From Bacillota bacterium (lineage in GTDB: Bacteria > Bacillota_I > Bacilli_A > RF39 > UBA660): a stretch of DNA of 64,000 bases. The first letter of the stretch is position 1; the number at the start of each line of letters is the position of its first letter. The stretch lies in assembly GCA_023430885.1 (NCBI GenBank), contig JAEYYH010000026.1:19599-83598 (forward strand), in the 5' to 3' direction. The notes beneath the pieces are model-generated. The model made no database searches. It was not told the DNA's origin and saw nothing but the letters and a program-made list of their open reading frames with translations. Of the stretch, positions 1 to 62,369 are shown piece after piece. Both the position numbers and the translations under genes were made by a program.

Positions 1-2
1 AA

Positions 3-1382: not shown

Positions 1383-1407
1383 AATTTAATATAAAATTTA
1401 CTAGACT

Positions 1408-4422: not shown

Positions 4423-4432
4423 GGAGGATATA

Positions 4433-5098: not shown

Positions 5099-5109
5099 GA
5101 GGTAAATAG

Positions 5110-7929
5110 ATGAAATTGAAATTCAGAGCAGATTCAAAAGACATAGTTATATTTGTAATATTTTGTGTAATATTACTTTATCTATGTGCTATAGCAGTAT
5201 TAAATTTATCAGAATTTTCAAAATACGGAACATTTTTTGGATTAAATCCATTTCCGGCTTTTACTTCTGAATATGTATTCCCAACTTTAGTAATATTTGT
5301 TTTTGCTTTAGTAGCCATTATTATGAGTGTCTCTTCTTATTTCTTTGATAGAGAAAAAGGAATAGGCATTAGCACTGATGCTAAAAAAGAAAAAGGTTAT
5401 TCAAGATGGTGTACTGATAAGGAAATGAAAAAAGAACTAAAACCTGTATTAGCAATGTCTGAGACAAGTGAATTTGCTGGTATACCAATAATGAATGACG
5501 GTAAAAAAATATGGGTTGATGATGGAGAATTTCATACTTTAGTTATTGGTTCTACTGGTGCAGGTAAAACTGAGATGACTATTCAACCTATGGTCAAAGT
5601 GCTTGCTAAAAAAGGCGAATCTATGATTATAACCGATCCAAAAGGTGAGATATATGAAAAGAATGCCTTGGAGTTAAAAGAAAAAGGATACAATATAGTT
5701 TTATTAAACTTTCGTAATCCTCAAAATGGTAATTGTTGGAATCCTCTAACTTTACCATATCAATTATACTGTGATAAAAATCAAGATAAAGCTTGCGAAT
5801 TGTTAGAGGATTTAGCTTTGAATATTCTATACGATGAATCATCAAAAGGGCAAGATCCATTCTGGGAAAAAACTTCCGCAGATTATTTTGCGGGTTTATC
5901 TTTAGCGTTATTTGAAGATGCTAAAGCAGAAGAAATTAACTTAAATAGTATTAATTTGATGACTACTGCTGGAGAAGATAAAATAGGTAACACTACATAT
6001 ATAAAAGAATATTTTAGTGATAAAGATCAGGGTTCTCCTGCATACATAAATGTAGCAAGTACATTAATGGCTCCAAATGAAACAAAGAGCAGTATTTTAT
6101 CTGTATTTAAACAAAAGATTAAACTATTTTCATCTCGTGAAAATCTATCTGAGATGTTATCTCATAGTGATTTTGACATGCATGATATTGGACGTAAAAA
6201 AACAGCTGTATTTATTGTAATACAAGATGAAAAGAAAACTTATCATTCACTTGTAACTATATTCTTAAAACAATGCTACGAAACGCTTATTAGTGTTGCG
6301 CAAGAATGTGGTGGGCATTTGCCATATAGAACAAACTTTATATTAGATGAGTTTGCTAATATGCCCCCCCTTAAAGATGTAACTACAATGGTAACTGCAG
6401 CTCGTAGTCGCCATATAAAATTTACATTTGTAATTCAAAACTTTGCACAACTTTATGAGGTATATGGCAAAGAAAATGGTGAAACAATAAAGGGTAACTG
6501 TGGTAATATAATTTATTTAATAAGTAGTGAGTTATCTGCTTTGGAAGAAATAAGTAAACTTTGTGGTGAAGTCAAATCAAAGGAAAAAGATAAGACGGAT
6601 TCTAGGCCACTTGTTACAGTTAGTGACTTGCAAAGATTGCCACAATGGACTTTAATAGCTATACGTATTCGTATGATGCCTTTTAAAACCAAACTTACTC
6701 CAAACTGGCAAATGGTTAAAGATAATAGTTGGGGTAGAAATTATGATCTAGCAACATATCCAGTTAGAGAAAAAGGCATAGTTCAAACATTTAATATAAA
6801 GCAGTTTGTTGATAAGAAAAAGGAAGAAAAAGTTACAAATATGCTTAATAATATAACTGGAGGTTCATCTAAGCCAGTTGATACAGGATTCAATCCTTTT
6901 GCTAGCCAAAAACCTACTAATGCTCCGCTTGCTTCGAAGAACGCAGGTGGATTTGATGTAGATGAAATGGTTCGTAGAATTGATGCAAAGATTGCTGAAC
7001 TTGAAGAAGAAGAAAGACAAGAAAAAGCAAAATTAGCCGAAAAAAATGCTGGCAATGCCAATCTGATTTCTAAGGATGATGTCACAATACCTATAGAAGA
7101 AAATAAATTAACTACATCACAAATTTCTTCAATTATACCTACAAGTGTTAAAGAAGAAAAATCTGAAACAGAAATAGATGAATCACCTGATTTTAATTTT
7201 AATATTCCAAAAACAGATGGAGAAAATTTAGATTTATCATTTAACAAACAAATTTTTCCATCTAGTGATTCAGTTGAATATAAAGATAATTCAAAATTAG
7301 ATTCAACACAAAATAAAAATGTGTTATTAGATTCATTAGCATCAGAAGATGATGCAAACGATGATAATGATAGTGGTAGATTCTTTGGTTTACCAGTTGT
7401 TGAAAATTCTTCAGCAAATAAAAATTCAGAGAACTTAGATGAGGAAGAACCAAAAGATGAAACTACTCAAAAAGAAAATAATAATAGCAGTCAATTTTTC
7501 GACTTCATTGTTCCTGTAGAAACTAAGAATGAAAAGCTAGAACCAAAACAGGAAGAAAATAATGTTGATATTAATATACAAGAAGAAAAAATTCCGGAAG
7601 GTATTATTAATGACATATTACCTGTATCTACTGTTCCTAAACAGGAATTAACACCAATTGATTCTTTACCAGAGGATTCATATATAGAAAAACCTGTGGA
7701 AGAAGATGTTGATATTCCAGCTTCTACAGAAGTGAAATTTATTCAACCAGTTATTGAAACCGCTCCATTAAAGCAAGAACAAAATGTTCCGACAAATGAA
7801 ATTAAAAATGAGACAGATAATAAAAAGACAATTGAAAAAAATATTGATAAATTAGATACAAAAGTGATTAATAATAATTATGTAACTGATGATCAATTCT
7901 TCGATGATTTCTTTAATGACGAAGAATAA
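5110..7929 (+). CDS. Type IV secretion coupling protein (VirD4/TraG/TcpA-like) with a ~380-aa acidic low-complexity C-terminal tail
   Basis: N-terminal TM helices. Walker A LVIGSTGAGKTEMT, IITDPKGE, Walker B FILDEFANMPP. C-terminal half is D/E/N/K/S-rich with no recognisable domain. Confidence 0.75.
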   Translation: MKLKFRADSKDIVIFVIFCVILLYLCAIAVLNLSEFSKYGTFFGLNPFPAFTSEYVFPTLVIFVFALVAIIMSVSSYFFDREKGIGISTDAKKEKGYSRWCTDKEMKKELKPVLAMSETSEFAGIPIMNDGKKIWVDDGEFHTLVIGSTGAGKTEMTIQPMVKVLAKKGESMIITDPKGEIYEKNALELKEKGYNIVLLNFRNPQNGNCWNPLTLPYQLYCDKNQDKACELLEDLALNILYDESSKGQDPFWEKTSADYFAGLSLALFEDAKAEEINLNSINLMTTAGEDKIGNTTYIKEYFSDKDQGSPAYINVASTLMAPNETKSSILSVFKQKIKLFSSRENLSEMLSHSDFDMHDIGRKKTAVFIVIQDEKKTYHSLVTIFLKQCYETLISVAQECGGHLPYRTNFILDEFANMPPLKDVTTMVTAARSRHIKFTFVIQNFAQLYEVYGKENGETIKGNCGNIIYLISSELSALEEISKLCGEVKSKEKDKTDSRPLVTVSDLQRLPQWTLIAIRIRMMPFKTKLTPNWQMVKDNSWGRNYDLATYPVREKGIVQTFNIKQFVDKKKEEKVTNMLNNITGGSSKPVDTGFNPFASQKPTNAPLASKNAGGFDVDEMVRRIDAKIAELEEEERQEKAKLAEKNAGNANLISKDDVTIPIEENKLTTSQISSIIPTSVKEEKSETEIDESPDFNFNIPKTDGENLDLSFNKQIFPSSDSVEYKDNSKLDSTQNKNVLLDSLASEDDANDDNDSGRFFGLPVVENSSANKNSENLDEEEPKDETTQKENNNSSQFFDFIVPVETKNEKLEPKQEENNVDINIQEEKIPEGIINDILPVSTVPKQELTPIDSLPEDSYIEKPVEEDVDIPASTEVKFIQPVIETAPLKQEQNVPTNEIKNETDNKKTIEKNIDKLDTKVINNNYVTDDQFFDDFFNDEE

Positions 7930-7931
7930 TT

Positions 7932-7984
7932 AAAAAAACCACTTATTAATATAATGCAAACATATTATATTATAGGTGGTTTTT
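7932..7984. terminator. Long imperfect hairpin (outer stem AAAAACCAC/GTGGTTTTT, loop CAAAC) flanked by A-run and T-run; bidirectional terminator candidate and possible element boundary
   Basis: Inverted repeat read directly from the sequence, immediately after the T4CP stop codon. Confidence 0.4.
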
Positions 7985-8269
7985 ATGTTAATAAATATAA
8001 GTGTTAGCGAGTTAAAAAAATTAATTGGGTCTATTAATATAATAGATATAAGAATTAAAGACGACTATGATAATGGACATATAAAAACGAGTATTAATAT
8101 TCCAAATAGTCAATTATTATGTAATTATAAACAATATTTAGACAAAACAAAAAAATATTATATATATTGTCAGTATGGAAAGACCAGTGTAAAAACATGT
8201 GCTTTCTTGAATAAATTAGGTTATGATGTTGTGAATATATCAGGTGGTTTTGATGAATTTTTTAAATAA
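7976..8269 (+). CDS. Single-domain rhodanese-like sulfurtransferase
   Basis: IIDIRIKDDYDNGHIKTSINIP and active-site loop YCQYGKTS. About 95 aa. Confidence 0.6.
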   Translation: MVFMLINISVSELKKLIGSINIIDIRIKDDYDNGHIKTSINIPNSQLLCNYKQYLDKTKKYYIYCQYGKTSVKTCAFLNKLGYDVVNISGGFDEFFK

Positions 8270-8444: not shown

Positions 8445-9944
8445 ATGATGAAACCTATAGTATTGTGCATCTTAGATGGTGTGGGAATAAGAAAAGAAGA
8501 ACATGGAAATGCTTTTGCGCAAGCAGCAAAGCCAAATTTTGATTTTTTATGGAATAAATATCCACATAGTTTACTTGAAGCAAGTGGAGAATTAGTTGGA
8601 CTTCCTCATGGACAAATGGGTAATAGTGAGGTAGGACACATGAATATTGGAGCTGGAAGAATAGTATATCAGCCACTTCAATTAATAAATGAAAAAATAA
8701 AAAATGGTGATTTTTTTGATAATAAAGAATATATAGATGTAATGGACTATGTTAACGAAAGAGACTCGAAGTTACATATTTTTGGATTACTTAGTGATGG
8801 TGGAATACACTCACATATTAATCATTTATTTGCTATACTTGATATGGCTAAAAAAAATGGGATCAAAAAATTATATCTACATATGTTTTTAGATGGTAGA
8901 GATACTCTTCCAGATGTAGCAGAAACATACTTAGATAAACTTGCCAAAAAAATAGATGAAATTGATTTAGGAGTTATTGCAACTATATCAGGAAGATATT
9001 ATGCAATGGATAGAGATAATAGGTGGGATAGAGTTAGTTTAGCATATAATGCCATTGCTAATGCTGATGGTATCGAATACGATAATTATCACGATGCAAT
9101 AAAAGATAGCTATGCAAATAAAATTTATGATGAATTTGTTTTGCCTACTGTTCTTGATAAAAATGGAACAGTGGAAGAAAATGATGGAATGATTTTGTTT
9201 AATTATAGACCAGATAGAGGTAGAGAATTATTTAGTGCTTTCACTAATCCAAAATTTACTGGATTTGAGAGAAAATTTATTAAAAATTTGAAACTAGTTA
9301 CAATGATGCCACTTAGCAATGAAGTAATTAATACAACGGCATTTGATAATCAAAATTTAACAAACACTTTGGGGGAGTACTTGTCAGATAATAATAAAAA
9401 ACAATTAAGAATAGCTGAAACAGAAAAATATGCTCATGTAACATATTTCTTTGATGGAGGATTAGAAAAAGAATTATCTGGATGTGATAGAATTTTAATT
9501 CCATCACCAAAAGTTGCTACATATGATTTAGCCCCTGAAATGAGTGCTGTTCAAATAACAGACAAGTTAATTGAAGTAATTGATAATTATGATGTTGTTA
9601 TAGTTAATTATGCAAATGGTGATATGGTTGGTCATACAGGGGTAATACCTGCTGCCATCACAGCCATTGAGTGTGTAGATGAATGTTTGGGAAGATTATA
9701 CAAAAAGGTGGATGAGATTGGCGGAACTTTATTAGTAACTGCTGATCATGGTAATTGCGATTGGATGCTGGATGATAACAATAATGTTATAACAAGTCAT
9801 TCAACTAGTTTAGTGCCTTTTATTATTAATAGGGATGTGGAATTAAAAGATGGTAAACTTGCTGATATTGCACCAACTATTTTAAAGATTTTGGATCTTG
9901 AAATTCCAGAAGAGATGACAGGAAGTATTCTTATTAAGAATTGA
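8445..9944 (+). CDS. gpmI: 2,3-bisphosphoglycerate-independent phosphoglycerate mutase
   Basis: ILDGVGIR, GNSEVGHMNIGAGR, ADHGN motifs. About 500 aa, typical iPGM. Confidence 0.9.
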   Translation: MMKPIVLCILDGVGIRKEEHGNAFAQAAKPNFDFLWNKYPHSLLEASGELVGLPHGQMGNSEVGHMNIGAGRIVYQPLQLINEKIKNGDFFDNKEYIDVMDYVNERDSKLHIFGLLSDGGIHSHINHLFAILDMAKKNGIKKLYLHMFLDGRDTLPDVAETYLDKLAKKIDEIDLGVIATISGRYYAMDRDNRWDRVSLAYNAIANADGIEYDNYHDAIKDSYANKIYDEFVLPTVLDKNGTVEENDGMILFNYRPDRGRELFSAFTNPKFTGFERKFIKNLKLVTMMPLSNEVINTTAFDNQNLTNTLGEYLSDNNKKQLRIAETEKYAHVTYFFDGGLEKELSGCDRILIPSPKVATYDLAPEMSAVQITDKLIEVIDNYDVVIVNYANGDMVGHTGVIPAAITAIECVDECLGRLYKKVDEIGGTLLVTADHGNCDWMLDDNNNVITSHSTSLVPFIINRDVELKDGKLADIAPTILKILDLEIPEEMTGSILIKN

Positions 9945-9955
9945 GGAACTTAGTA

Positions 9956-11311
9956 ATGAAAGAAAAGAAAAAAACAAAAATAAAATTTAAGAAAATAAAT
10001 ATATTTATTGCTTTAAATATATTATTTTTGCTTGGATGTTGTGTATTTTACGGATCTAGATTAATTTATTATTATAAAGTTGAACACCCAAAAGTAAAAG
10101 CTAACGAAGATTTAGTAGATTTAGTAACGCTTAAAAAAAATATAACTACAGTAGGCTCTGGTTTATACAAAACTGATGACGGTTATGTATATAAGGGTGA
10201 TAAAGTAGCAAATTATGTGCAGTATTCAGGCAGATTATGGCGTGTTATATCAGTAGATAAAGATAATAATATAAAATTAATTACGGATGCTTCACAAACA
10301 TCACTGGTATGGGGAATCTCTACAGATTATAAAAATTCTTATGTTAGATCATGGTTAAATGATGAGAGTAATAATATTAAATCATTTTATGAAAGTTTAG
10401 CAGACACAAGTAACCTCGTAAAAACTAAAACTTGTATTGATGAAATTTCAGAAAATAGTATTACTTGTGACGATTATGTAGAAGATAATATAGGACTATT
10501 ATCTGCATATGAATATCAGCTTGCAGGTGGTGAAGATAGTTATTTAAACATTGAACAATATTGGTGGACTAGTAATATAAATGATAATGAAACTGCTTGG
10601 TATGTGTATTCTAAGGGAAGCTTAAATGACACATCATATTCAGGGACTATGTATTATAGCTATGGTGTAAGGCCAACAATAACTATTAAAGGAACATCAG
10701 AAGTTAAAAGTGGTGATGGTAGTAGTGAAAACCCATATAATTTGGATATTTCAACAACAAACATACTAAATAAAAAATATGTTGGTAACTATATAAATTA
10801 TAGTGATTATACATGGCGTATAATAGAAACAGATGATAACTATGTAAAAGTTGTTATGGATGGTGTTGTTAAGAAAGATAACAAGGATTATTATACATCT
10901 TTTGGAACAACAAATTATTATTCAGTAGATTCAAAAGTTGGTAATTATCTAAACAAAAACTTTTATAATAGTTTGGATAATAAAGAGTATATTTTAAAAT
11001 CCGACTTTTATGCTGGTAGATATGATTATTCAAATAAATATGATTTTAATAGTATAACTGAATATAATGAAACATTAAAAGTGGGCTTATTACAATTAGG
11101 GGAATTGTTCGTTACAGATGTTTCAAAATATTTCTTATCAACAAGAACCAAAACAACTGATAATAATATTTATCAAGTATTAGAAGATGGTCGAATATAT
11201 GCTGGTGATTTAACAGATGAGTTAATGCTAAGGCCAACTATATATTTAAAACCAGACTTAGCAATAAATTCAGGTAATGGTACACAGAAAGATCCATATA
11301 TAGTTGGGTAG
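9956..11311 (+). CDS. Membrane-anchored extracellular protein with two internally repeated ~200-aa halves (function unknown). Start ATG 9956 after RBS GAGGAAC; the track's 9941 start overlaps the gpmI stop
   Basis: N-terminal TM INIFIALNILFLLGCCVFYG. Repeats G.KVANYVQYSGRLWRVI / KKYVGNYINYSDYTWRII. Each half ends NPY.L / DPYIV. Confidence 0.45.
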   Translation: MKEKKKTKIKFKKINIFIALNILFLLGCCVFYGSRLIYYYKVEHPKVKANEDLVDLVTLKKNITTVGSGLYKTDDGYVYKGDKVANYVQYSGRLWRVISVDKDNNIKLITDASQTSLVWGISTDYKNSYVRSWLNDESNNIKSFYESLADTSNLVKTKTCIDEISENSITCDDYVEDNIGLLSAYEYQLAGGEDSYLNIEQYWWTSNINDNETAWYVYSKGSLNDTSYSGTMYYSYGVRPTITIKGTSEVKSGDGSSENPYNLDISTTNILNKKYVGNYINYSDYTWRIIETDDNYVKVVMDGVVKKDNKDYYTSFGTTNYYSVDSKVGNYLNKNFYNSLDNKEYILKSDFYAGRYDYSNKYDFNSITEYNETLKVGLLQLGELFVTDVSKYFLSTRTKTTDNNIYQVLEDGRIYAGDLTDELMLRPTIYLKPDLAINSGNGTQKDPYIVG

Positions 11312-20266: not shown

Positions 20267-22081
20267 ATGTTTAAAAAAGAAAAAAGAATTAAAGATACAA
20301 AAGAAAAGAAGATAAATATTAATATAATTCTTGCGATTATATTAGTTTTGTCTTCTTTAATGTTATCTGGATTAGTTATATATGCTAACATATTTCCAAT
20401 AAAGTATTTAGCTCCAGCAATAATTATCTTGATAATTATGGTTGGTATAATTGTGTTTAAATTATTATCTAAAAAGACAAGAAAAAAAAGAAAAAACGTC
20501 CTTTATATATTATCTATATTGTTAAGTGTTATTTTTTTTATTGCTAGTTTTTTTGTAGCAAAAACAAAAATACTTTTAAATAGCAGTAATATTGATTATA
20601 AAACGCATAATTATTCTGTCATAGTATTAAATGATAGTAAATACTCAAATTTAAATGATTTGGAAAATGCAAGTATGGGCTATTTTGACAATGGTGCTGA
20701 AGGACTGAACGAGTCAATAAAAAAAATAGAAGATCAAATTGATGTTAGTATGGTTCCATATACTAATTTAGAAGAATTAGGTTATGCAGTATTATCAGGA
20801 GAAGTTGATTCTATAATTGTAGAGGATTCTTATAAAAGTATTCTAGATAATGAAGAAGATAATAGTGATAGATTGGAAAATTTTAAATCTCTAACTAAGA
20901 CAATATATAATTTTAGTATAAAAATTAAACAGGAAGATATAAGCAAGGATGTTGATGTAACAGATAAAACATTTGCAATATACATAAGTGGAATAGATAC
21001 ATATGGTGATATATCTTCTGTTTCATGTAGTGATGTAAATATGTTGCTTGTTGTTAATCCAAAAACTCATCAAATACTTATGGTTTCTATACCAAGAGAT
21101 TACTATGTTCAATTACATGGAACAACCGGTAATAAAGATAAATTAACACATGCTGGCAGTTACGGAATAGAAATGTCTATTCAAACTATTGAAGATTTAC
21201 TTGATATGAATATTAATTATTATGTTAAAGTTAATTTTACAAGTTTAATTGATATAGTGGATGCTTTAGGTGGCGTTGAAGTTTATTCAGAATATACATT
21301 TACTTCAATAGAAGGCTATAGTTATACAGCAGGATACAATAGTGTTGATGGAATACAAGCATTATGGTTTGCTAGAGAAAGAAAAGCTTTCTTAGATGGC
21401 GATAGACAAAGAGGAAGAAATCAACAAGCACTCATTGATGCTATATTTAGAAAAGCGACAAGTAAATCAGTTATAACAAAATATAATAGTTTACTAAATG
21501 GAATAAAGGGTAGTTTTGTTACTAATATGAGTGTAGACAGAATAACCGCATTAATAAAAATGCAGTTATCTGATAATGCAAAATGGACTATTACTTCAAC
21601 AAGTTTAGATGGTACAGATAGTTCTAATTACACTTATACATATAGCAACCAATTACTCTATGTTATGGAACCTAATATGGATAGTGTGGAAGCAGCTAAA
21701 TCAATGATAAATCAGGTTTACAATGGTGAAAAGTTAACAGCTTCTTATGAAGATACTAGTAGTGATGTTCATGATGTACAAAAGTATGATCCTATATATT
21801 ATCCAGAAGAAAATACTACTCCGGAAGAAAAACCAGTGATTACAACATATACAGTTAATTTTGATAGTACTGGTGGTAGCAGTGTAGCTAATCAAACTAT
21901 TGAAGAAGGTAAGATTGTGGTAGAGCCTATAGATCCAATCAAAGACGGATATACTTTCTTTGGTTGGTATGATGAAGCAGGAAAATTATATGATTTTACT
22001 AGTACAGTTTCGAAAAATATGACATTAACAGCCCAGTGGGAAGTAGCAGTAATAGAAGAAGAGCCTGTTACAACTCCTTAG
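20267..22081 (+). CDS. LytR-CpsA-Psr (LCP) family cell-wall glycopolymer transferase with a C-terminal Listeria-Bacteroides repeat domain
   Basis: LCP core HAGSYGIEMSIQTIEDLLDMNINYYVKVNFTSLIDIVDALGGVEV. C-terminal YTVNFDSTGGS...DGYTFFGWYDEAGKLYDF...TLTAQW repeat. Confidence 0.8.
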   Translation: MFKKEKRIKDTKEKKININIILAIILVLSSLMLSGLVIYANIFPIKYLAPAIIILIIMVGIIVFKLLSKKTRKKRKNVLYILSILLSVIFFIASFFVAKTKILLNSSNIDYKTHNYSVIVLNDSKYSNLNDLENASMGYFDNGAEGLNESIKKIEDQIDVSMVPYTNLEELGYAVLSGEVDSIIVEDSYKSILDNEEDNSDRLENFKSLTKTIYNFSIKIKQEDISKDVDVTDKTFAIYISGIDTYGDISSVSCSDVNMLLVVNPKTHQILMVSIPRDYYVQLHGTTGNKDKLTHAGSYGIEMSIQTIEDLLDMNINYYVKVNFTSLIDIVDALGGVEVYSEYTFTSIEGYSYTAGYNSVDGIQALWFARERKAFLDGDRQRGRNQQALIDAIFRKATSKSVITKYNSLLNGIKGSFVTNMSVDRITALIKMQLSDNAKWTITSTSLDGTDSSNYTYTYSNQLLYVMEPNMDSVEAAKSMINQVYNGEKLTASYEDTSSDVHDVQKYDPIYYPEENTTPEEKPVITTYTVNFDSTGGSSVANQTIEEGKIVVEPIDPIKDGYTFFGWYDEAGKLYDFTSTVSKNMTLTAQWEVAVIEEEPVTTP

Positions 22082-27439: not shown

Positions 27440-27712
27440 ACATAGGCGTTGAAGAAACGAGTAATAATAACAACTAATTTGAGCGAGTTAGATATGGTGG
27501 AAGCTAACAATTAAGTTTATTATGAAGAACAGTTCGGAGCTATCTATTTGAACTATAGTAGAATAGATCGGTTGTAATCCGTTACCAAGTTACATGAGAG
27601 ATTATATATTACTATACTTTGTATAATGATATTTAATAATGTGGGTGGTACCGCGGATACAACAGTAATTCGTCCCTTTGTGGAATTTTGAAGTACTGTT
27701 TTTTTATTCGAA
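27440..27712 (+). promoter_or_regulatory. T-box riboswitch leader 1 (putative Asn specifier AAC) with intrinsic terminator
   Basis: Canonical T-box sequence AATGTGGGTGGTACCGCGG at about 27641-27657. Terminator hairpin about 27664-27700 plus T7 run. Stem I region AGTAATAATAACAACTAATTTGAGCGAG contains AAC. Confidence 0.7.
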
Positions 27713-27716
27713 TTTG

Positions 27717-27792
27717 CCTGATTAGCTCAGTTGGTAGAGCATCCGGCTGTTAACCGGCAGGTCGTAGGTCCGAGTCCTACATCAGGCGCCAT
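27717..27792 (+). tRNA. tRNA-Asn (anticodon GUU) with encoded CCA; atypical T-loop UCCGAGU (C at position 55)
   Basis: Cloverleaf folded by hand. Acceptor GCCTGAT/ATCAGGC, D-arm GCTC-AGTTGGTA-GAGC, anticodon loop CTGTTAA, T-arm GTAGG-TCCGAGT-CCTAC, discriminator G, then CCA. Confidence 0.75.
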
Positions 27793-28043
27793 TTTTATTT
27801 TATAAGCGATGATTAAGAGAGTAATAATATGACTAGTAAAAGCGAGTTAGGTATGGTGGAAGCTAACAACCAATAGTATTATGAAAAACACTTATGAGCT
27901 ATTATTCTGAAATAAAGTAAGTTTAATCGGTTTAACCCGTTATCAAGTTAGAGTGACTATAGAATTATTTTATAGTAATTTGGGTGGTACCGCGGATACA
28001 ACAGTAATTCGTCCCTACAGGGATTGAATACTGTTTTTTTTAT
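27793..28043 (+). promoter_or_regulatory. T-box riboswitch leader 2 (putative Asp GAC specifier), near-duplicate of leader 1, directly upstream of gatC
   Basis: T-box sequence AATTTGGGTGGTACCGCGG at about 27980-27996. Terminator ACAGTAATTCGTCCCT/AGGGATTGAATACTGT plus T8. Stem I region AGTAATAATATGACTAGTAAAAGCGAG. Confidence 0.7.
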
Positions 28044-34964: not shown

Positions 34965-36068
34965 TTGTTTAATATTTCACTTAAGATACTAGAAAAAATA
35001 GAACAAACCGGATTTGAAGCATATATAGTTGGTGGATTTGCAAGAGATAATTACATAGGACGTAATAGTACTGATGTAGATATATGTACAAATGCAACTC
35101 CAAAAGAACTAAAAAATATTTTTCAAGGAAGTATGCTTCCAAAAGAACAATATGGTTCAGTTGCCGTCATATATAAGAAAATTAGATTTGATATAACAAC
35201 TTATCGTAAAGATATAAAATATCAGAATAATAGATTACCTGTTGAAATAAAATACATAAATAATTTAGAGGATGATTTGAAAAGAAGAGACTTTACTATG
35301 AATACACTTTGTATTGATAAAGAAGGAAATTATATAGACCTATTAAATGCTAGAGCTGATATTGATAAAAAGATTATAAAAACTGTAGGAAATGCTAAAG
35401 AAAAACTAAATGAAGATTCACTTAGAATACTTCGTGCCATTAGATTTGCAACTATACTTGATTTTGAATTAGATGAAGAATTAAAGCAAGCTATAAAAGA
35501 ATATGGCTATTTATTAAAGAAACTATCTTATTTTAGAAAAAAGGAAGAATTAGACAAGATTTTTAGCAGTATTAATGTTAAACGTGGTATAAAGTTATTA
35601 CTTGAATTTGATCTTGATAAGTATTTAGATTTAAACAATTTAGATAAAATAATTATCACATCATCGCCTTTAGCAATATGGGCACAGTTGGATGTTTTAA
35701 ATACATATAGTTTTTCAAATATTGAAAAATGTTCAATAGAAACAATAAATATATTGAAAACAAATATGTCGTTTGATAACTACGAGCTATATACTTATGG
35801 ATTATATTTGACTTCTTTAGTTGCAGAAATTAATAATATTGATAAAACTTTATTAACAAAAAGGTATATGAGTCTTCCTATAAAAAACAAAAGAGATATA
35901 GTGATTGATGGTGCTGAAATATGTAATGTTCTTAATATAAAACCATCAAAGATTATAAAAGAAATAATAGAGGATTTAGAGAAGAAAATCATTCATGGGC
36001 AACTAGAAAATGACAAAAATCTTATAATTAATTATATTAAAAAGAATTATTCTGGAAGAGTTGAATAA
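34965..36068 (+). CDS. cca: CCA-adding tRNA nucleotidyltransferase; TTG start after RBS GAGGAGGG (the track's 34950 start lies inside the hup terminator)
   Basis: GGFARD motif, nucleotidyltransferase head plus HD-less Firmicute-type tail. Confidence 0.8.
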   Translation: MFNISLKILEKIEQTGFEAYIVGGFARDNYIGRNSTDVDICTNATPKELKNIFQGSMLPKEQYGSVAVIYKKIRFDITTYRKDIKYQNNRLPVEIKYINNLEDDLKRRDFTMNTLCIDKEGNYIDLLNARADIDKKIIKTVGNAKEKLNEDSLRILRAIRFATILDFELDEELKQAIKEYGYLLKKLSYFRKKEELDKIFSSINVKRGIKLLLEFDLDKYLDLNNLDKIIITSSPLAIWAQLDVLNTYSFSNIEKCSIETINILKTNMSFDNYELYTYGLYLTSLVAEINNIDKTLLTKRYMSLPIKNKRDIVIDGAEICNVLNIKPSKIIKEIIEDLEKKIIHGQLENDKNLIINYIKKNYSGRVE

Positions 36069-36113
36069 TTCTTTTTTAATTGATATAATTTATATATGAT
36101 AGGATGCGATAGT

Positions 36114-38729
36114 ATGAATAAAAAGAAAGGTTTTACATTGGTAGAAATACTGGCTGTTGTAATAATACTTGGGGTTATAAGTATTATTGTTTATCCAGTT
36201 CTTAATAAAGTCTTAAAAGATAATAGAAAAAGAGCATTTGAGGCTAGTCTAAATGCAGTAGTTAGAGCAGCTGAATTATATAAAACAGATAATAATAATG
36301 TTTTGGGTATATTTGATTACGATGACGAAAATATTGATATAAGTAATCTAGGTAAATGGCAAGCAGGAACTTTAACTGATTCTGTTGATACTGATGGAAA
36401 TACAAAAATATATCTTACGGGATTTTATGATGGTGAATTTTGTGCCACTGGTTATGAAGGTAACTTCACAATAATTGAAGGAAAGTGTGTGGAAACACCT
36501 GAATTATGTTTCATTATGAAAAATAACGAAATTATACAATATGAATTTGACTATAGTGCATGTCCAACGAATGTTAATATTCCTACTAGCATTGATGGTC
36601 AGGATGTTTTATATATAGGCGAAGGTGTTTTTGAAAGTTCACCTATAGCTTCTGTAATTATTCCTAATAGTATTAAAGAAATTAGAGATAATGCTTTTAA
36701 TGATAGTGCCTTGACATCACTTGATTTGACTAATGCTACATCTCTTCAAATAATTGGTTCTGGGGCATTTGAATATACACACTTAACTAATGTAGATTTT
36801 ACCAATCTTACAAGTTTAGTAGAAATAAAAGGTGCGGCTTTTGAATATTCTGGACTAACAGGAACTTTAGATTTAACAAACTCTACAAATTTAACAAGGA
36901 TATGGCCATATTCATTTGAAGAAAATCAAATATCTTCAGTTAAATTAAGTGGTTTAACTCATCTTGAAAGAATTGGAGAATATGCTTTTGAAGAAAATAA
37001 TATAACAGGAGTTTTAGAATTAACAAACATGCCAGCATTAGTATCATTAGATGATGGTGCTTTTAGCAATAATAATATAACAAGTATTAATCTAACAAGC
37101 ACTAATGTTCTAGAAAGCATTGGTCAAAATGCTTTTGCATATAATGATATTACTAATATTAATGTAGATACAATTAATAATATAATGTGGTTAGGAGCAT
37201 ATGCTTTTGCATATAATGATTTAACTAGTTTCAGTTTAACGTTATTTCCAAATATCGATTATGTTTCAGCTGGTGTAGTTAATAATAATCAGCTATCTAA
37301 TAGTGAAGCCTTCATATATAATGTAGTTAATGGAACAATAGAGCCTAGTATTTTGATATCATACGGTGGTGCAAGTAGAAGTAATATTGTAATACCTAGC
37401 ACTGTAGTATCAATAGGTGAGAATACTTTTTATAGTCAGGGTATAACAAGTGTTGACTTTAGTCAGGCTACTGGATTAACAAATATTGATTATTATGCAT
37501 TCGCTTCCAATAATTTAACTACAATAACATTACCTAGTACGTTAATAGAAATAGGTCAATATGCATTTTCTGAAAATCAACTAGTTAGTATTACTATTCC
37601 AGAAAATACAACAACAATAGATGATTATGCATTTTACTCTAACAGATTAACTTCTGTAACATTACCCAGCACATTATTAGGAATAGGACAATATGCATTT
37701 GCTTACAATCAATTAGCTAATATTACTATTCCAGGTAATACAACAACAATAGAAAACTATGCATTTAAAAGTAATGCTACTTGGCAAACAATAACAATCT
37801 TATCTAATGGGGTAAATAGTACATTGAGATTTAATTATGTTTGGGCTGATATTGGTTGGCCAATGGAAAAAATTCCTACTGTAGAAGTATTATCAACTCT
37901 TTCTACAGCAGCCCAAAATAATTTTGATTTTCAAAATTTTACATATTATAAAGTTGCTGTACCAACAAGTGGGCAATACAAATTTGAGGTATGGGGAGCC
38001 CAAGGAGGTTGTAACAGTGGTGGCAAAGGTGGATATTCTACCGGCTTAGTACAATTAAATAGTGGAGATACCTTATATGTTTATGTTGGTGGTAAAGGTT
38101 TGTGTTCAAGCGAAACTAGTTCTAGTCTAATGGGGGGATTTAATGGTGGCGGATTTGCTTATAAAAATAGTTATACCGCTGGTTCTGGAGGCGGTGCTAC
38201 CGACATAAGAGTAACAACTAATTCATTATATGCCCGTGTGATTGTTGCCGGTGGCGGCGGTGGTTATAGTTCTGTTGGCGGTTATACTGGCGGTTTTGGT
38301 GGAGGTTTAGTAGGTGGTTCAACATATAACAATGCTACATTTTCAGCTGGTGGTGGAACTCAAATAAATGGTGGGGTAAATGGCTGTTATTCTAATGGAA
38401 ATGGTAAATTTGGATTTGGTGGTTCATACGGTTCTGCTTGTGGTTCACTTTGGGGATATCCAATTTCTGGTGGTGGATCAGGTTGGTATGGTGGTGGAAG
38501 CACCAGCATAAGTGCCGGCGGTGGTTCTGGTTGGATTTACACATCAACAGACTTTACAAATTGGCAATCAGGAAATGCAACAGATGCAGCACAATGGTTA
38601 TTAAATAGTTCATATTATTTATTAAGTGCACAAACAATTGCGGGTAATCTTGCAATTACTAATCCAGATGGTAGCAGTGTTACAGGTCATGCAGGTAATG
38701 GTTACGCCAGAATAACATTTATAGCTTAA
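36114..38729 (+). CDS. Modular type IV pilin: prepilin leader plus pilin domain, BspA-type leucine-rich repeats, C-terminal Gly-rich domain
   Basis: MNKKKG|FTLVEIL class III signal. Pilin D-region FCATGYEGNFTIIEGKC. More than 15 LRR_5-like repeats (L..IG..AF....LT.I). C-terminal 250 aa is Gly-rich and ends GNGYARITFIA. Confidence 0.65.
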   Translation: MNKKKGFTLVEILAVVIILGVISIIVYPVLNKVLKDNRKRAFEASLNAVVRAAELYKTDNNNVLGIFDYDDENIDISNLGKWQAGTLTDSVDTDGNTKIYLTGFYDGEFCATGYEGNFTIIEGKCVETPELCFIMKNNEIIQYEFDYSACPTNVNIPTSIDGQDVLYIGEGVFESSPIASVIIPNSIKEIRDNAFNDSALTSLDLTNATSLQIIGSGAFEYTHLTNVDFTNLTSLVEIKGAAFEYSGLTGTLDLTNSTNLTRIWPYSFEENQISSVKLSGLTHLERIGEYAFEENNITGVLELTNMPALVSLDDGAFSNNNITSINLTSTNVLESIGQNAFAYNDITNINVDTINNIMWLGAYAFAYNDLTSFSLTLFPNIDYVSAGVVNNNQLSNSEAFIYNVVNGTIEPSILISYGGASRSNIVIPSTVVSIGENTFYSQGITSVDFSQATGLTNIDYYAFASNNLTTITLPSTLIEIGQYAFSENQLVSITIPENTTTIDDYAFYSNRLTSVTLPSTLLGIGQYAFAYNQLANITIPGNTTTIENYAFKSNATWQTITILSNGVNSTLRFNYVWADIGWPMEKIPTVEVLSTLSTAAQNNFDFQNFTYYKVAVPTSGQYKFEVWGAQGGCNSGGKGGYSTGLVQLNSGDTLYVYVGGKGLCSSETSSSLMGGFNGGGFAYKNSYTAGSGGGATDIRVTTNSLYARVIVAGGGGGYSSVGGYTGGFGGGLVGGSTYNNATFSAGGGTQINGGVNGCYSNGNGKFGFGGSYGSACGSLWGYPISGGGSGWYGGGSTSISAGGGSGWIYTSTDFTNWQSGNATDAAQWLLNSSYYLLSAQTIAGNLAITNPDGSSVTGHAGNGYARITFIA

Positions 38730-38730
38730 A

Positions 38731-38751
38731 AAGGTCTATGACCTTTTTTTC
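38731..38751 (+). terminator. Rho-independent terminator (AAAGGTCTATGACCTTTTTTT)
   Basis: Hairpin plus T-run directly after the stop codon. Confidence 0.5.
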
Positions 38752-46160: not shown

Positions 46161-46559
46161 ATGAAAATAATTAATAAAGAGTCAGTAACTTACAAAAAAG
46201 GTTTTACGCTAATAGAATTAATTGCTGTAATTTTATTAATAGGCATAATTTCATTAATAACAGTGCCAACAGTATCAAATATAATACAAGAATCAAAAGA
46301 AAAAGCTTTTAAAGCACAAGCAATATATATATTTGAAGCTACGATGATATATTTATATGATAATGATTATGCTGATATACCATCAGAGGGACTTGATGTC
46401 ACTATAATAAATAGTATAGATCCAAATCCTTTTATAACCGGATATGTATTTAGAAATGCCAGTGGTAAATTTGAAATCGCTTATGTAAGTGATGGAAATT
46501 ATTGTGCAAATGGTGAAAAAAATAATTTAGTAATAACAAGAGGAACTTGTGATGTATAA
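46161..46559 (+). CDS. Minimal type IV (pseudo)pilin with prepilin cleavage/methylation signal
   Basis: YKKG|FTLIELIAVILLIGIISLITVP. D-region DGNYCANGEKNNLVITRGTC. Confidence 0.7.
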   Translation: MKIINKESVTYKKGFTLIELIAVILLIGIISLITVPTVSNIIQESKEKAFKAQAIYIFEATMIYLYDNDYADIPSEGLDVTIINSIDPNPFITGYVFRNASGKFEIAYVSDGNYCANGEKNNLVITRGTCDV

Positions 46560-60320: not shown

Positions 60321-62369
60321 ATGAAAAATAAAAAAGGATTCACGCTTGTAGAGTTAATTGCAATAATAATTGTTATTGGAATAATTATTGGAATTATAGC
60401 GCCTACTGCAATTAAACTTATAGAGAAATCCAAGGTTAATTCTTTTAGAGAAGGTTTAAGAAGTATAATACGATCAGCGGAAATTTATATGGAAGAAAAT
60501 GATTTGAAAACTCTTCCAGAAGATGGAATATATTTACAAGATAACGATCTTGATATTGATTATGCGGATGGTTATAGTGGAATAATAAAATATATAAATG
60601 GAGAAATTGTATTACAAAATATAGGTAACGGGACATATTGTGGTAGTGGCAGTAAAGATACTTTATCTGTATCTGGTTTTACTGAAGATTGTGTAGTGGT
60701 CAAACCTGAGCCTCAGTGCTACTTGATGGGAACCACTGATACTACAGGTGATACTATCATTGGGTACGATTATGAAAAAGAAGATTGTAGTTCTATGGAA
60801 TTATCAATTCCAGCGACAGTTAATGAAGTGCCTGTTAAATATATTGCAGATGGAGCATTTTTAGATTCTTATGAATATGTACTTGGTGTAGGTTACTATG
60901 ACACTACTCCATTAGGTGGTCCAGGTCTTTTTCCAGTAATTGAACTTTTAGATAATTTATCTTATATGGGTGTGACTCCTTTTGAAACAATCTATATGAA
61001 TACTCTTCCGCAAATGCCAAAATTCTGTCTTACAACTTCTATGGAAGAAGCAACGGTTCCAATAAATTATATGATGTCATCAGGTGGATACGTTTTTTGC
61101 AATTTTGAAATGTATGATGATCTTTCTTCTTATCAAGCACATGGTATTGGTATAACAAAAGTAGATTTTAGTAATGCAACTAATTTGGTTAAAATTGGTA
61201 ATTCAGCTTTTTCTTATAATTTTATAACAGGGGCAATGGATTTAAGTGGTGCCACTAAATTAACAGAAATAGCTTCAAATGCCTTTGGTTATAATCAAAT
61301 AGAATCTATAAAGTTACCTAGTAGTCTTGTTACAATAGGAAGTTCTGCTTTTGTAGGTAATCAAATACAAACAATATCAATACCTTCTTCAGTTACAACA
61401 ATTGGCGATTATGCTTTTGAAGATAATAATTGGAATAGCGTTACTATTGGATCAAACTCAACTAATAAAGAAGATAGATTTAATGATAGTTGGGAAGTTA
61501 TCGGCTGGCCTTTGGAAATAATGCCAGAAGAATCTATTTCTGATCCTATTGATTATACATTAACGACGTCAACAAACACATTTGATTATATAAAAGGTTA
61601 TTATATTGTAAATGTTCAAACAAGTGGTAATTATAAATTAGAAGTTTGGGGCGGTTCCGGTTCAAATGGTGCTTCAAATGATCCTTCTGCATATGCATAT
61701 CCAAGTTATAGCGGTGGCTATACATCAGGTACAGTATATCTTTCTGCAGGAACAAAAATATATGTATACGTTGGTGGCGCAGGAAATGATATAAAAGGTG
61801 GATATAATGGAGGTGGAAACTCCATTTCACCAGATGGCGATTGTGAAGACAATGGCGCTGGCGGTGGCGCTACTGACATAAGATTAGTTGGTGGAGATTG
61901 GAATGCTCAATCAAGTTTATTGTCAAGGATTATTGTGGCTGGCGGTGGCGGCGGCGGTAGAGTAACCGCGCCATCTACAAATGCTGGTACTGAAATAGGA
62001 TTGGCTGGATCACAAACACAATCTGGAGTGGCAACGGATACTGAAAATTCTTGGAATGATAGTATAACTTGCGATATTGCTGGAGGTTTTGGTTTTGGTG
62101 GCTCAGAAAATTCGTCAGATGATAATCCCGGCGGTGGCGGAGGCTGGTATGGTGGATGTTCAGGCTATGATGCTATGGGTGGTGGTGGTTCTAACTACGC
62201 ACTTACTAGCGAATCAGTAAAACCATCAGGATATACCCCAACTAGTACTTACTATTTGTCTAACATTGTATCAACAGCTGGTAATGCTTCAATGCCAACT
62301 TATGATGGTCTTAGTACAATGACTGGAAATATAGGCAATGGCTATGCCAAAATAACTTATATTGGATAA
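60321..62369 (+). CDS. Modular type IV pilin paralog: prepilin leader plus pilin domain, short LRR block, C-terminal Gly-rich domain
   Basis: MKNKKG|FTLVELIAIIIVIGI. D-region GNGTYCGSGSKDTLSVSGFTEDC. LRR_5-type repeats. Gly-rich C-terminus with GGGATDIRL, RIIVAGGGGGG, ending GNGYAKITYIG. Confidence 0.65.
   Translation: MKNKKGFTLVELIAIIIVIGIIIGIIAPTAIKLIEKSKVNSFREGLRSIIRSAEIYMEENDLKTLPEDGIYLQDNDLDIDYADGYSGIIKYINGEIVLQNIGNGTYCGSGSKDTLSVSGFTEDCVVVKPEPQCYLMGTTDTTGDTIIGYDYEKEDCSSMELSIPATVNEVPVKYIADGAFLDSYEYVLGVGYYDTTPLGGPGLFPVIELLDNLSYMGVTPFETIYMNTLPQMPKFCLTTSMEEATVPINYMMSSGGYVFCNFEMYDDLSSYQAHGIGITKVDFSNATNLVKIGNSAFSYNFITGAMDLSGATKLTEIASNAFGYNQIESIKLPSSLVTIGSSAFVGNQIQTISIPSSVTTIGDYAFEDNNWNSVTIGSNSTNKEDRFNDSWEVIGWPLEIMPEESISDPIDYTLTTSTNTFDYIKGYYIVNVQTSGNYKLEVWGGSGSNGASNDPSAYAYPSYSGGYTSGTVYLSAGTKIYVYVGGAGNDIKGGYNGGGNSISPDGDCEDNGAGGGATDIRLVGGDWNAQSSLLSRIIVAGGGGGGRVTAPSTNAGTEIGLAGSQTQSGVATDTENSWNDSITCDIAGGFGFGGSENSSDDNPGGGGGWYGGCSGYDAMGGGGSNYALTSESVKPSGYTPTSTYYLSNIVSTAGNASMPTYDGLSTMTGNIGNGYAKITYIG

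What the first reader, a model, noticed from the sequence alone, without database searches (positions are those of the whole stretch)
36114..38729. Giant modular type IV pilin: prepilin N-terminus fused to a BspA-type LRR array and a Gly-rich C-terminal domain
The 872-aa protein begins with a textbook class III signal (KKKG|FTLVEIL) and a ~120-aa pilin domain with C-terminal disulfide loop (FCATGYEGNFTIIEGKC). It continues with more than 15 BspA-like leucine-rich repeats and a ~250-aa glycine-rich domain. Pilins with large C-terminal adhesin modules (modular pilins) are known from Streptococcus sanguinis. Here the module is an LRR adhesin-like array plus a Gly-rich domain. No pilus assembly genes (PilB/C/D/M/N/O or ComGA/GB) lie in the window, so the partner machinery is elsewhere. 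The gene sits alone between cca and dus with its own promoter and terminator.
Basis: partly seen in the sequence, partly recalled or inferred. Interest (0 to 1): 0.7.

Follow-up and report, generated by a model that had tools for sequence, protein, structure and literature searches.

The report
Three-module type IV pilin adhesin
This gene encodes a complete small type IV pilin fused to a long leucine-rich-repeat rod and a glycine-rich end domain related to that of the human ALK receptor; it is most likely an adhesin carried at a pilus tip, and it is a new combination within the known class of "modular pilins".

Summary

The gene is monocistronic between cca and dus. It is conserved in related metagenomic genomes and under purifying selection (dN/dS 0.21, against 0.03-0.07 for its neighbours).

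In a relative about 88% identical at the DNA level, the same cca-dus slot carries the same pilin and first LRR block but a different C-terminus (Ig-like and HYR domains), so the distal part was swapped as a cassette.

No pilus machinery lies in the window or in any flank I could inspect. I could not search the whole genome, so processing and assembly remain inferred.

Pilin+LRR_5 and pilin+PF12810 proteins were already catalogued in 2021; the triple combination was not. Verdict: a new member of a known kind, of moderate interest.

The parts
36061..36089 (+). Promoter-like site: TTGAAT, 17-nt spacer, TATAAT preceded by TG
   Evidence: (10 of 12 matches, extended -10) and the sequence. This is a consensus match only. 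The region as a whole is not enriched in such sites (22 found against 19.4 expected).
36101..36104 (+). Shine-Dalgarno-like AGGA, 9 nt before the ATG at 36114
   Evidence: Read directly.
36114..38729 (+). CDS of the 871-aa three-module pilin, stop codon included
   Evidence: dN/dS is 0.21 against the ortholog in L001.
36114..36131 (+). Leader peptide MNKKKG. The predicted prepilin-peptidase cleavage site is after Gly6.
   Evidence: Cleavage itself is inferred.
36114..36497 (+). Pilin module, residues 1-128: the alpha-1 helix (residues 9-59, with Gly at mature position 14 and Pro at 22), a 4-stranded sheet, and the Cys110-Cys125 loop
36498..36572 (+). Short linker (VETPE) and LRR N-cap with Cys132/Cys150 (the 'CF...Y...C..V.IP' motif)
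   Evidence: C132 and C150 are at least 90% conserved in A2.
36573..37298 (+). LRR block 1: nine clear BspA-type (LRR_5) units of 22-25 aa plus one degenerate unit (residues 154-395)
   Evidence: pLDDT is above 90. Foldseek matches 4fs7, 4cp6, 4gt6 and 4h09.
37299..37370 (+). Inter-block element 'SEAFIYN...ILISYGG' (residues 396-419)
   Evidence: The element is conserved in the A2 consensus.
37371..37784 (+). LRR block 2: six 22-24-aa LRR_5 units (residues 420-557)
   Evidence: (best LRR_5 stretch at residues 456-565).
37785..37964 (+). LRR C-cap ('RFNYVWADIGWP') and linker to the GRD (residues 558-617)
   Evidence: The 576-617 linker has the lowest identity to P0001 (83%).
37965..38726 (+). 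C-terminal ALK/LTK-type glycine-rich domain (TNF-like plus Gly-rich; PF12810; residues 618-871; 26% Gly; Cys633/664/758/776)
   Evidence: Pfam 154 bits. Foldseek matches to ALK/LTK structures. The bacterial GRD profile reaches scd-2 ALK at E 1.2e-7.
38728..38748 (+). Terminator-like hairpin (9-bp stem, loop UAU) followed by UUCUU
   Evidence: (dG -8.2 kcal/mol, z -2.4) and the sequence. The pattern scan did not list it.
37099..38745 (+). Segment replaced, relative to the orthologous cca-dus locus of a related genome (L004). It runs from about residue 329 to the end of the gene and includes the terminator.
   Evidence: blastn: the flanks are 88.7% and 86.7% identical, while this segment is unrelated apart from a 290-nt stretch at 70%. 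Protein P0006 carries Ig-like and HYR domains instead of the GRD.
46161..46559 (+). Stand-alone 132-aa type IV pilin with the same module type. It ends 2 aa after the second Cys. It is a candidate filament partner or major subunit.
   Evidence: Orthologs are conserved in the same position.
60321..62369 (+). Paralog of 682 aa with the same N_methyl + LRR_5 + GRD architecture, lying between prmC and dnaD
   Evidence: 35% identity over LRR+GRD and 26% over the N-terminal 329 residues (pilin module plus first LRRs)..

Best explanation
The gene encodes a functional three-module ('modular') type IV pilin of an uncultivated, spore-forming, low-GC Bacilli lineage.

Shown here:
- It has a canonical class III signal peptide.
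- It has a complete 128-aa pilin fold, equivalent to the organism's own stand-alone 132-aa pilin.
- A linker of about 6 residues joins that module to a rigid solenoid of about 16 BspA-type LRRs, which is capped by a domain homologous to the ALK/LTK TNF-like/glycine-rich domain.
- The gene is conserved, under purifying selection, and faster-evolving than its neighbours. Its distal half is exchanged as a cassette between related genomes.

Inferred mechanism:
1. The preprotein inserts into the membrane through its hydrophobic alpha-1N helix.
2. A prepilin peptidase encoded elsewhere cleaves after Gly6 and methylates Phe7.
3. The type IV filament machinery, also encoded elsewhere, incorporates the pilin module into a filament built mainly of a small pilin. 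The 132-aa pilin at 46161-46559 is the candidate.
4. The 743-aa passenger is joined by a very short linker, so the subunit fits only at the filament tip. There the LRR rod projects the glycine-rich domain outward as the ligand-binding end. In other words, it is a tip adhesin.
5. Recombinational swapping of the distal module (glycine-rich domain versus Ig-like/HYR) changes what the pilus binds.
For: Signal and fold:
- Pfam and NCBIfam calls are above their cut-offs.
- G-1, T2, L3 and E5 are invariant, and F1, P22, C110 and C125 are at least 90% conserved, across 23 modules from diverse genomes. A plain membrane anchor would not need that pattern.
- The module aligns end to end with the stand-alone pilin, which stops 2 aa after the second Cys.

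Passenger:
- LRR_5 scores 256 bits and the GRD 154 bits.
- Foldseek matches LRR_5 surface proteins, including the pneumococcal adhesin PcpA, and separately the ALK/LTK TG domains.
- A profile of bacterial GRDs reaches ALK in the PDB.

Functionality:
- The gene and its synteny are conserved in at least 3 assemblies.
- dN/dS is 0.21 overall and lowest in the pilin module at 0.10.

Display logic: homologous LRR_5 arrays elsewhere are attached to other modules, listed by Pfam accession. From memory these are T9SS sorting domains (PF18962), SLH (PF00395) and dockerin (PF00404). At least 38 of the 120 listed homologs carry the pilin N-terminus instead.

Cassette swap at the orthologous locus.

Precedent: S. 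sanguinis PilB is a small pilin module joined by a short loop to a bulky adhesin module and is probably tip-located (PMC8179133).
Against: - No prepilin peptidase, assembly ATPase or platform gene lies in the 64-kb window, in about 7 kb beyond its 3' end, or next to any of the related family members examined.
- The rest of the genome could not be searched, so processing and polymerisation are untested.
- All three pilin genes in the window are orphans scattered among housekeeping genes.
- The Gly-rich parts of the C-terminal domain are modelled with pLDDT below 50, so its polyglycine-II lattice is not shown.
- No ligand is known for any bacterial PF12810 domain or for any pilin-LRR protein. 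'Adhesin' rests on analogy.
Confidence: 0.55

Rival explanations
1. Membrane-tethered surface adhesin that is never polymerised. The class III signal and alpha-1 helix serve only for export, peptidase processing and anchoring in the cytoplasmic membrane. The LRR-GRD arm reaches through the wall. This would resemble archaeal class-III-signal substrate-binding proteins.
For: - The genes are orphans, far from any machinery.
- This lineage and other low-GC lineages hold many large N_methyl proteins scattered or in arrays: three in this window, three in L011 and five in tandem in L034. That looks like a general surface-display route.
- Close LRR+GRD relatives (P0011, P0012, P0014) have an E5-less 'KG(L/M)AISGILYS' N-terminus and go straight from the helix into the LRR with no globular pilin domain.
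Against: - The entire globular pilin domain is kept, not just the signal. It is the most constrained part of the protein (dN/dS 0.10) and has near-invariant G85, C110 and C125.
- E5 is invariant. By established knowledge of type IV pilins, E5 is needed for assembly rather than for membrane insertion.
- A stand-alone pilin of the same module type exists and could form the filament body.
Confidence: 0.22
2. Minor subunit of a short pseudopilus (Com-type competence pilus or a T2SS-like endopilus) rather than of a long adhesive type IV pilus. The passenger would then bind DNA, wall material or a secreted substrate near the cell surface.
For: - NCBIfam gives weak N-terminal similarity to GspG (30.8 bits), ComGC (27.9), ComGE and ComGD.
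- The organism is a member of Bacilli. From general knowledge, Com pseudopili are the commonest type IV filament in that group.
Against: - All those matches are far below the equivalog cut-offs (88.85, 75, 49 and 70 bits) and cover only the shared alpha-1 region.
- The gene is not in a comG-like operon.
- A passenger of about 16 LRRs plus a GRD, roughly 10 nm or more by rough estimate, fits an exposed filament tip better than a periplasm- or wall-spanning stub. This last point is inference.
Confidence: 0.15
3. Non-adhesive role of the distal module. The GRD also occurs in phage proteins and in giant multi-GRD proteins, so it could serve, for example, as a phage-receptor decoy, in cell-cell recognition or killing, or as an enzyme scaffold.
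For: - The GRD matches PHROG families of unknown function at E about 1e-31.
- Many top GRD representatives are signal-less, phage-like proteins or giants of more than 5,000 aa with up to 10 GRD copies.
- The fast evolution and cassette swap would also fit an arms race.
Against: - No catalytic motif or enzyme family was hit.
- LRR_5 arrays are typical binding scaffolds. From knowledge, the PDB relatives include the adhesin PcpA and the internalins.
- From knowledge, the only characterised GRDs (ALK/LTK) are ligand-binding domains.
Confidence: 0.06
4. Decayed or chimeric ORF, or an assembly artefact, with no function.
For: Nothing specific. The source is a metagenome-assembled contig.
Against: - The identical protein is found on four contigs and is on record from NCBI, Logan and ENA.
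- A 92% ortholog with the same synteny lies on a 191-kb JGI contig.
- dN/dS is 0.21 across all modules.
- The reading frame is intact over 2.6 kb in DNA of 29% GC.
Confidence: 0.02

Closest known systems
Streptococcus sanguinis PilB (pilin + vWA) and PilC (pilin + lectin), the founding 'modular pilins' (Raynaud et al. 2021, PMC8179133; Shahin et al. 2023, PMC9934059)
   Same: Both have a class III signal and a small canonical pilin module joined by a short linker to a bulky module that is not specific to pili and has a predicted binding role. Both are expected to sit at the filament tip.
   Different: - The passenger here is two modules (an LRR_5 solenoid plus an ALK-type GRD), 743 aa in all.
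- The gene is an orphan between cca and dus, not part of a pil locus.
- The organism is uncultivated.
- There is no experimental evidence of processing, piliation or binding.
Catalogued but uncharacterised IPR012902-IPR026906 (pilin + BspA LRR; 18+6+3+2 proteins) and IPR012902-PF12810 (pilin + Gly-rich; 2+1 proteins) architectures, in Dataset S1 of PMC8179133
   Same: The same N-terminal motif is combined with the same passenger families.
   Different: No listed architecture combines LRR_5 and PF12810 in one protein. Here the two occur in series, and the combination recurs in several metagenomic lineages: P0001-3, P0007, P0008, P0010, P0029 and the window paralog.
BspA-type LRR (PF13306) surface proteins: Tannerella BspA, pneumococcal PcpA (4cp6), gut-bacterial 4fs7/4gt6/4h09
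   Same: The LRR_5 repeat type, the N-cap with a Cys pair, and the solenoid fold.
   Different: From knowledge, those proteins are anchored by choline-binding repeats, T9SS domains, SLH domains or lipid anchors. This one is carried by a pilin module. It is not the HupY/LrrG equivalog (126.8 bits against a cut-off of 1250).
ALK/LTK extracellular TG (TNF-like + glycine-rich) domain, PDB 7LRZ, 7NWZ, 7N00, 7LIR, 7NX1
   Same: Membership of Pfam PF12810 over the whole model, Foldseek probability 1.00, and a profile-to-PDB match at E 1.2e-7 to the C. elegans ALK homolog.
   Different: The known examples are metazoan receptor-kinase ectodomains that bind ALKAL cytokines (from knowledge). The bacterial domain has no known ligand. 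Its Gly-rich segments are not confidently modelled here. Single-sequence similarity to ALK is undetectable.
Large tip-located minor pilins and pseudopilins: ETEC CofB, T2SS GspK, Thermus ComZ
   Different: According to PMC8179133, their extra domains are idiosyncratic insertions or extensions that database signatures do not define. Here the extra domains are two widespread, portable Pfam families.

Membership tests
Type IV pilin (class III signal peptide proteins) | Short, positively charged leader ending in Gly, followed by Phe+1 and Glu+5 | tested here: met
   The sequence is MNKKKG|FTLVE. Pfam N_methyl scores 29.9 bits against a cut-off of 21.2, and TIGR02532 scores 26.7 against 16.3. The residues are invariant across 23 homologous modules.
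Type IV pilin (class III signal peptide proteins) | About 21 hydrophobic residues forming alpha-1N of a helix of about 50 residues, packed on an antiparallel beta-sheet | tested here: met
Type IV pilin (class III signal peptide proteins) | Cleavage and N-methylation by a dedicated prepilin peptidase (A24 family) | not testable with these tools
   There is no A24 peptidase in the window or in the inspected flanks.
Type IV pilin (class III signal peptide proteins) | Polymerisation into a filament by a T4F machinery (assembly ATPase plus platform protein) | not testable with these tools
   No GspE-type Walker A motif was found in the window or in loci L001-L012, and the called genes of L093/L094 carry no T4P machinery family. 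The same regex found the motif in 11 of 36 control pilin loci, so the local absence is real. The genome-wide status is unknown.
Modular pilin as defined by Raynaud et al. 2021 | An N-terminal IPR012902 motif and pilin module, plus at least one extra domain not specific to type IV pilus biology | tested here: met
   N_methyl plus LRR_5 plus PF12810. The definition is read.
BspA-type LRR proteins (Pfam PF13306 LRR_5) | Score above the Pfam gathering threshold, with repeated units of 22-25 aa | tested here: met
   256 bits against 27.7. There are 15 clear units spaced 22-25 aa apart. pLDDT is above 90 and Foldseek matches LRR_5 crystal structures.
ALK/LTK glycine-rich domain (Pfam PF12810) | Full-length match above the gathering threshold | tested here: met
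   154.3 bits against 24.5, covering profile positions 6-243 of 243. Foldseek matches ALK/LTK TG domains with probability 1.00. The A3 profile reaches ALK in the PDB.
ALK/LTK glycine-rich domain (Pfam PF12810) | A lattice of polyglycine-II helices packed on a TNF-like beta-sandwich (known from the 2021 ALK structures) | tested here: inconclusive
   The beta-core is modelled at pLDDT 85-92, but the Gly-rich segments 665-690 and 718-802 have pLDDT below 50.
T2SS major pseudopilin GspG / competence pilin ComGC (NCBIfam equivalogs) | Score above the equivalog cut-off | tested here: not met
   GspG scores 30.8 against 88.85 and ComGC 27.9 against 75. Only the alpha-1 region matches.
LRR adhesin HupY/LrrG (NF047961) | Score above the equivalog cut-off | tested here: not met
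   126.8 bits against 1250. Only the shared LRR repeats match.

The most novel reading that the evidence does not exclude
In this uncultivated Bacilli lineage the pilin module may work as a universal carrier in a cassette system. Several scattered loci each encode a pilin-plus-LRR 'handle', and recombination swaps the distal binding module (ALK-type glycine-rich domain, Ig-like/HYR, others) between strains. The result would be a re-targetable pilus tip. The bacterial glycine-rich domain would then be a true ligand-binding module. That would give a tractable prokaryotic model for the function and origin of the ALK/LTK ligand-binding domain.
Probability: 0.2. Interest if true: 0.6.

Novelty: new member of a known kind. 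Interest (0 to 1): 0.35.

Why it matters
Modular pilins are the current explanation for how simple type IV filaments acquire many functions, yet only the S. sanguinis examples have been studied experimentally.

- This locus is a clean natural example in which a complete pilin carries two portable modules in series. The outer one has been exchanged between closely related genomes at a fixed chromosomal slot, which is direct evidence for 'evolutionary tinkering' at the pilus tip.
- It places a homolog of the ALK/LTK ligand-binding domain at the business end of a bacterial appendage. That domain family is very large in bacteria and phages (5,868 representative clusters) and has no known function there.
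- If binding partners were found, they would inform how an uncultivated lineage attaches to surfaces or hosts, and what the prokaryotic role of the glycine-rich domain is.

Tried and rejected
1. Finding the source genome in the GTDB species representatives: the single scan returned only an unrelated Bacteroidia LRR.
2. Searching homologs of the 132-aa pilin to reach operon-borne paralogs: only 10 orthologs came back, all in the same orphan context.
3. Walking out of the window. The 3' edge gave about 7 kb more (PBP1, RecU, DivIVA, RecA) with no machinery. The 5' edge protein was not on record.
4. Looking at the contexts of distant family members (P0013, P0047, P0021, P0029, P0014, P0012): all lie among housekeeping genes. 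The three conserved unannotated genes upstream of P0014 and P0012 have no pilin-like N-terminus.
I used those loci only as a positive control for the motif scans.
6. Single-sequence phmmer of the GRD against the PDB found nothing. A profile was needed.
8. I considered and rejected membership of the GspG/ComGC and HupY/LrrG equivalogs, because the scores are far below the cut-offs.
9. I considered and rejected a pseudogene or assembly artefact.
10. The alternative start at 36096 is rejected because it lies 7 nt after the -10 element and has no RBS.
Full report
OBSERVATION

The ORF is real. It runs from 36096 or 36114 to 38729 on the + strand. The ATG at 36114 is the credible start, for three reasons. 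An AGGA lies 9 nt upstream. A TTGAAT-17-(TG)TATAAT promoter-like site ends at 36089, only 7 nt before the alternative ATG at 36096. Gene callers in three public assemblies also start at MNKKKG and give 871 aa.

Pfam finds three families above their thresholds:
- N_methyl, residues 1-27, 29.9 bits.
- LRR_5, 256 bits.
- PF12810 ALK_LTK_GRD, residues 618-870, 154 bits, covering the full length of the model.
NCBIfam TIGR02532 also passes its cut-off.

Direct counting gives 15 clear 'IGxxAF' LRR units spaced 22-25 aa apart, plus one degenerate unit. They form two blocks separated by a 'FIYN...SYGG' element. The protein has eight cysteines, which I read as four likely pairs (110/125, 132/150, 633/664, 758/776). 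The last 254 residues are 26% Gly.

The neighbours are cca upstream and dus downstream. A 9-bp hairpin with a T-run follows the stop codon, and an 11/12 promoter-like site for dus comes straight after it.

A six-frame motif scan found two further prepilin N-termini.
- ORF 46161-46559 is a 132-aa stand-alone pilin (N_methyl only).
- ORF 60321-62369 is a 682-aa protein with the same N_methyl + LRR_5 + GRD architecture. It is 35% identical to the target over LRR+GRD and 26% over the N-terminal 329 residues, which span the pilin module and the first LRRs. It lies between prmC and dnaD.

The stand-alone pilin aligns with the first 128 residues of the giant protein from end to end, including the Cys...Cys loop, and it terminates two residues after the second Cys. 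The giant protein is therefore literally a complete small pilin plus an extension.

IS THE N-TERMINUS A REAL PILIN MODULE?

I aligned 23 modules from diverse homologs (alignment A1). G-1, T2, L3 and E5 are invariant. F1, Pro at mature position 22, Gly85, Cys110 and Cys125 are at least 90% conserved.

Matches to GspG, ComGC and ComGD/E are far below the equivalog cut-offs. The protein is a pilin-family member but not an ortholog of those named subunits.

THE PASSENGER

The full-length AF2 model has pLDDT 79.6 and pTM 0.67. The LRR solenoid is above 90 and the beta-core of the GRD is at 85-92. The Gly-rich segments 665-690 and 718-802 are below 50.

Foldseek against the PDB retrieves two separate sets of structures. 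The first is the BspA-type LRR crystal structures 4fs7, PcpA 4cp6, 4gt6 and 4h09. The second is the ALK/LTK TG (TNF-like plus glycine-rich) domains 7nx3, 7lrz, 7nwz, 7n00, 7lir and 7nx1, with probability 1.00. Sequence searches agree:
- A profile of 18 bacterial GRDs (A3) reaches the C. elegans ALK homolog at E 1.2e-7 and human ALK at about 1e-3.
- The single sequence finds nothing in the PDB.

The domain family is very large. There are 5,868 representative clusters at E<=1e-3 and 325 at E<=1e-30, often in giant proteins with up to 10 copies. It also matches phage protein families of unknown function. Of the 148 top representatives, 11 begin with a strict class III signal and about 10 more with an E5-less 'KGFAIS...' variant. 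Pilin-GRD fusions are therefore recurrent.

GENOMIC AND EVOLUTIONARY CONTEXT

The window is part of a 173-kb contig of an unnamed MAG. Its SpoIVA is 78-82% identical to proteins of MAGs labelled Bacilli, Tenericutes, Mollicutes or Firmicutes bacterium. The window also encodes PolC, PBP-related and other peptidoglycan genes, and a remnant of a conjugative element at 1-8 kb. The organism is thus an uncultivated, walled, spore-forming, low-GC (29%) member of Bacilli.

The gene and its synteny (gatCAB-asnS-aspS-hup-cca-X-dus-RDD-lysS-ackA) recur on a 191-kb JGI contig at 92% amino-acid identity. Against that ortholog, dN/dS is as follows:
- the whole gene: 0.21;
- the pilin module: 0.10;
- the two LRR blocks: 0.30 and 0.23;
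- the GRD: 0.15;
- the neighbouring housekeeping genes: 0.03-0.07.
This is a functional gene that evolves like a surface protein.

In a more distant relative (a 537-kb ENA scaffold) the same cca-X-dus slot holds a 939-aa protein, P0006. Its first 490 or so residues are 56% identical to the target, but its C-terminus consists of two Bact_surface_Ig-like domains, a HYR domain and an unassigned domain instead of the GRD.

At the DNA level the flanks are 88.7% and 86.7% identical. Window 37099-38745 is essentially unrelated. The left breakpoint lies inside the LRR array and the right one lies exactly at the end of the transcription unit. I read this as a cassette replacement. A third variant, P0003, lacks 44 residues relative to the target (827 against 871 aa), missing from LRR block 2.

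MACHINERY

No T2SSE, T2SSF, Peptidase_A24 or PilMNO domain occurs in any window ORF of 120 aa or more. A regex for the GspE Walker A motif and the PilD GxGDxK motif found nothing in the window or in 12 related loci. The same regex found the ATPase motif in 11 of 36 control pilin loci and the PilD motif in 3, so the local absence is meaningful.

About 7 kb beyond the 3' edge there is still nothing. Family members in other genomes are likewise scattered among housekeeping genes. I could not reach the rest of the genome: the genome-collection scan and the metagenome scan both failed to recover this lineage.

MECHANISM

The best-supported reading is a tip-located modular minor pilin.
1. The preprotein inserts into the membrane through alpha-1N.
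2. A prepilin peptidase cleaves after Gly6.
3. The 128-aa module is incorporated into a filament whose body is probably a small pilin, with the 132-aa protein as the obvious candidate.
4. A solenoid of about 16 LRRs projects the glycine-rich domain outward as the binding end.

The steps shown here are the signal, the fold, the modular anatomy, the selection pattern and the cassette swap. The inferred steps are cleavage, polymerisation, tip position and adhesion. Tip position follows from the linker of about 6 residues and from the S. sanguinis PilB precedent (PMC8179133). Adhesion follows from the known roles of LRR_5 proteins and of the ALK GRD, which I cite from general knowledge.

The invariance of E5 and the strong constraint on the globular pilin domain argue against a mere membrane anchor. 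On the other side, three facts keep that rival alive at about 0.2: the abundance of scattered giant N_methyl proteins in such lineages, the existence of relatives that lack both E5 and the globular pilin domain, and the missing machinery.

COMPARISON WITH WHAT IS KNOWN, AND NOVELTY

Raynaud et al. 2021 defined modular pilins and catalogued 1,219 of them in 264 architectures. IPR012902-IPR026906 accounts for 29 proteins in four architectures, and one search confirms that IPR026906 is the BspA-type LRR. IPR012902-PF12810 accounts for 3 proteins in two architectures. No listed architecture combines the two.

In today's databases the triple architecture occurs in several metagenomic lineages (P0001-3, P0007, P0008, P0010, P0029 and the window paralog). 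Where a source gives a name, members of the wider pilin-LRR family are labelled 'leucine-rich repeat protein' or 'prepilin-type N-terminal cleavage/methylation domain-containing protein'. None has been characterised.

The finding is therefore a new member (a new module combination) of a known kind. Two additions are useful: the orthologous-slot cassette swap, and the stand-alone pilin that equals the carrier module.

VERDICT

Function as an assembled pilus subunit is plausible but untested. Interest is moderate, at 0.35.

Noticed in passing
window 27440-28019: There are two complete T-box leaders (27440-27680 and 27800-28019) with a tRNA-Asn(GTT) gene (27716-27791) between them. They lie directly upstream of gatCAB, an AsnRS-like class II synthetase gene and aspS. 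The layout suggests T-box control linked to tRNA-dependent asparagine formation. From memory it resembles the Clostridium acetobutylicum tRNA-Asn/T-box arrangement.
   Followed up: partly
window 1-8000: A remnant or edge of a conjugative element: a VirB4/TraG-like ATPase (3-1382), a 1,004-aa SpoIID+CHAP cell-wall hydrolase (1408-4422) and a type IV coupling protein (5110-7929). This is type IV secretion and is unrelated to type IV pili.
   Followed up: no
L034 5044-18767 (metagenome contig JAEEGL011026697.1, 29% GC): Five tandem giant prepilin-type ORFs (540, 1117, 1077, 1053 and 748 aa) follow an HTH_25-pgsA pair. The only Pfam match in each is N_methyl. This may be an array of modular pilins with unclassified passengers.
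   Followed up: partly
P0011, P0012, P0014 (loci L093 10001-13942, L094 10001-13993) and L093 9044-9895: These LRR_5+GRD or LRR_5 proteins have an E5-less N-terminus, '(N/Q/S)KG(L/M)AISGILYSILVLFL', that runs from the helix straight into the LRR N-cap with no globular pilin domain. The same variant heads about 10 of the top GRD representatives. It is either a distinct pilin-like signal class or a plain signal anchor.
   Followed up: partly
L005 10001-14395 (GCA_050259235.1, labelled Ignavibacteriales): A tandem pair of pilin-LRR-GRD genes lies downstream of deoC-tyrS. Pfam missed the N_methyl motif in the second gene, but the sequence shows KKGFTLVELL. The surrounding genes (EzrA, SASP, ThiI) look like Firmicutes, so the MAG's taxonomic label is doubtful.
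   Followed up: partly
GRD representatives P0149-P0296: The ALK-type glycine-rich domain occurs in proteins of more than 7,000 aa with up to 10 copies. It also occurs at the N-terminus of many signal-less proteins that start 'MATYDLT...CPYSG...YKLECWGAQGG', and it matches PHROG families 1589, 5811 and 7388 (function unknown). That points to an uncharacterised role in phage or tail-fibre-like proteins.
   Followed up: partly
window 9941-11311 and 20267-22081: Other likely surface proteins in the window: a 456-aa DUF6273 protein and a LytR_cpsA_psr protein with a C-terminal Listeria-Bacteroides (Flg_new) repeat.
   Followed up: no
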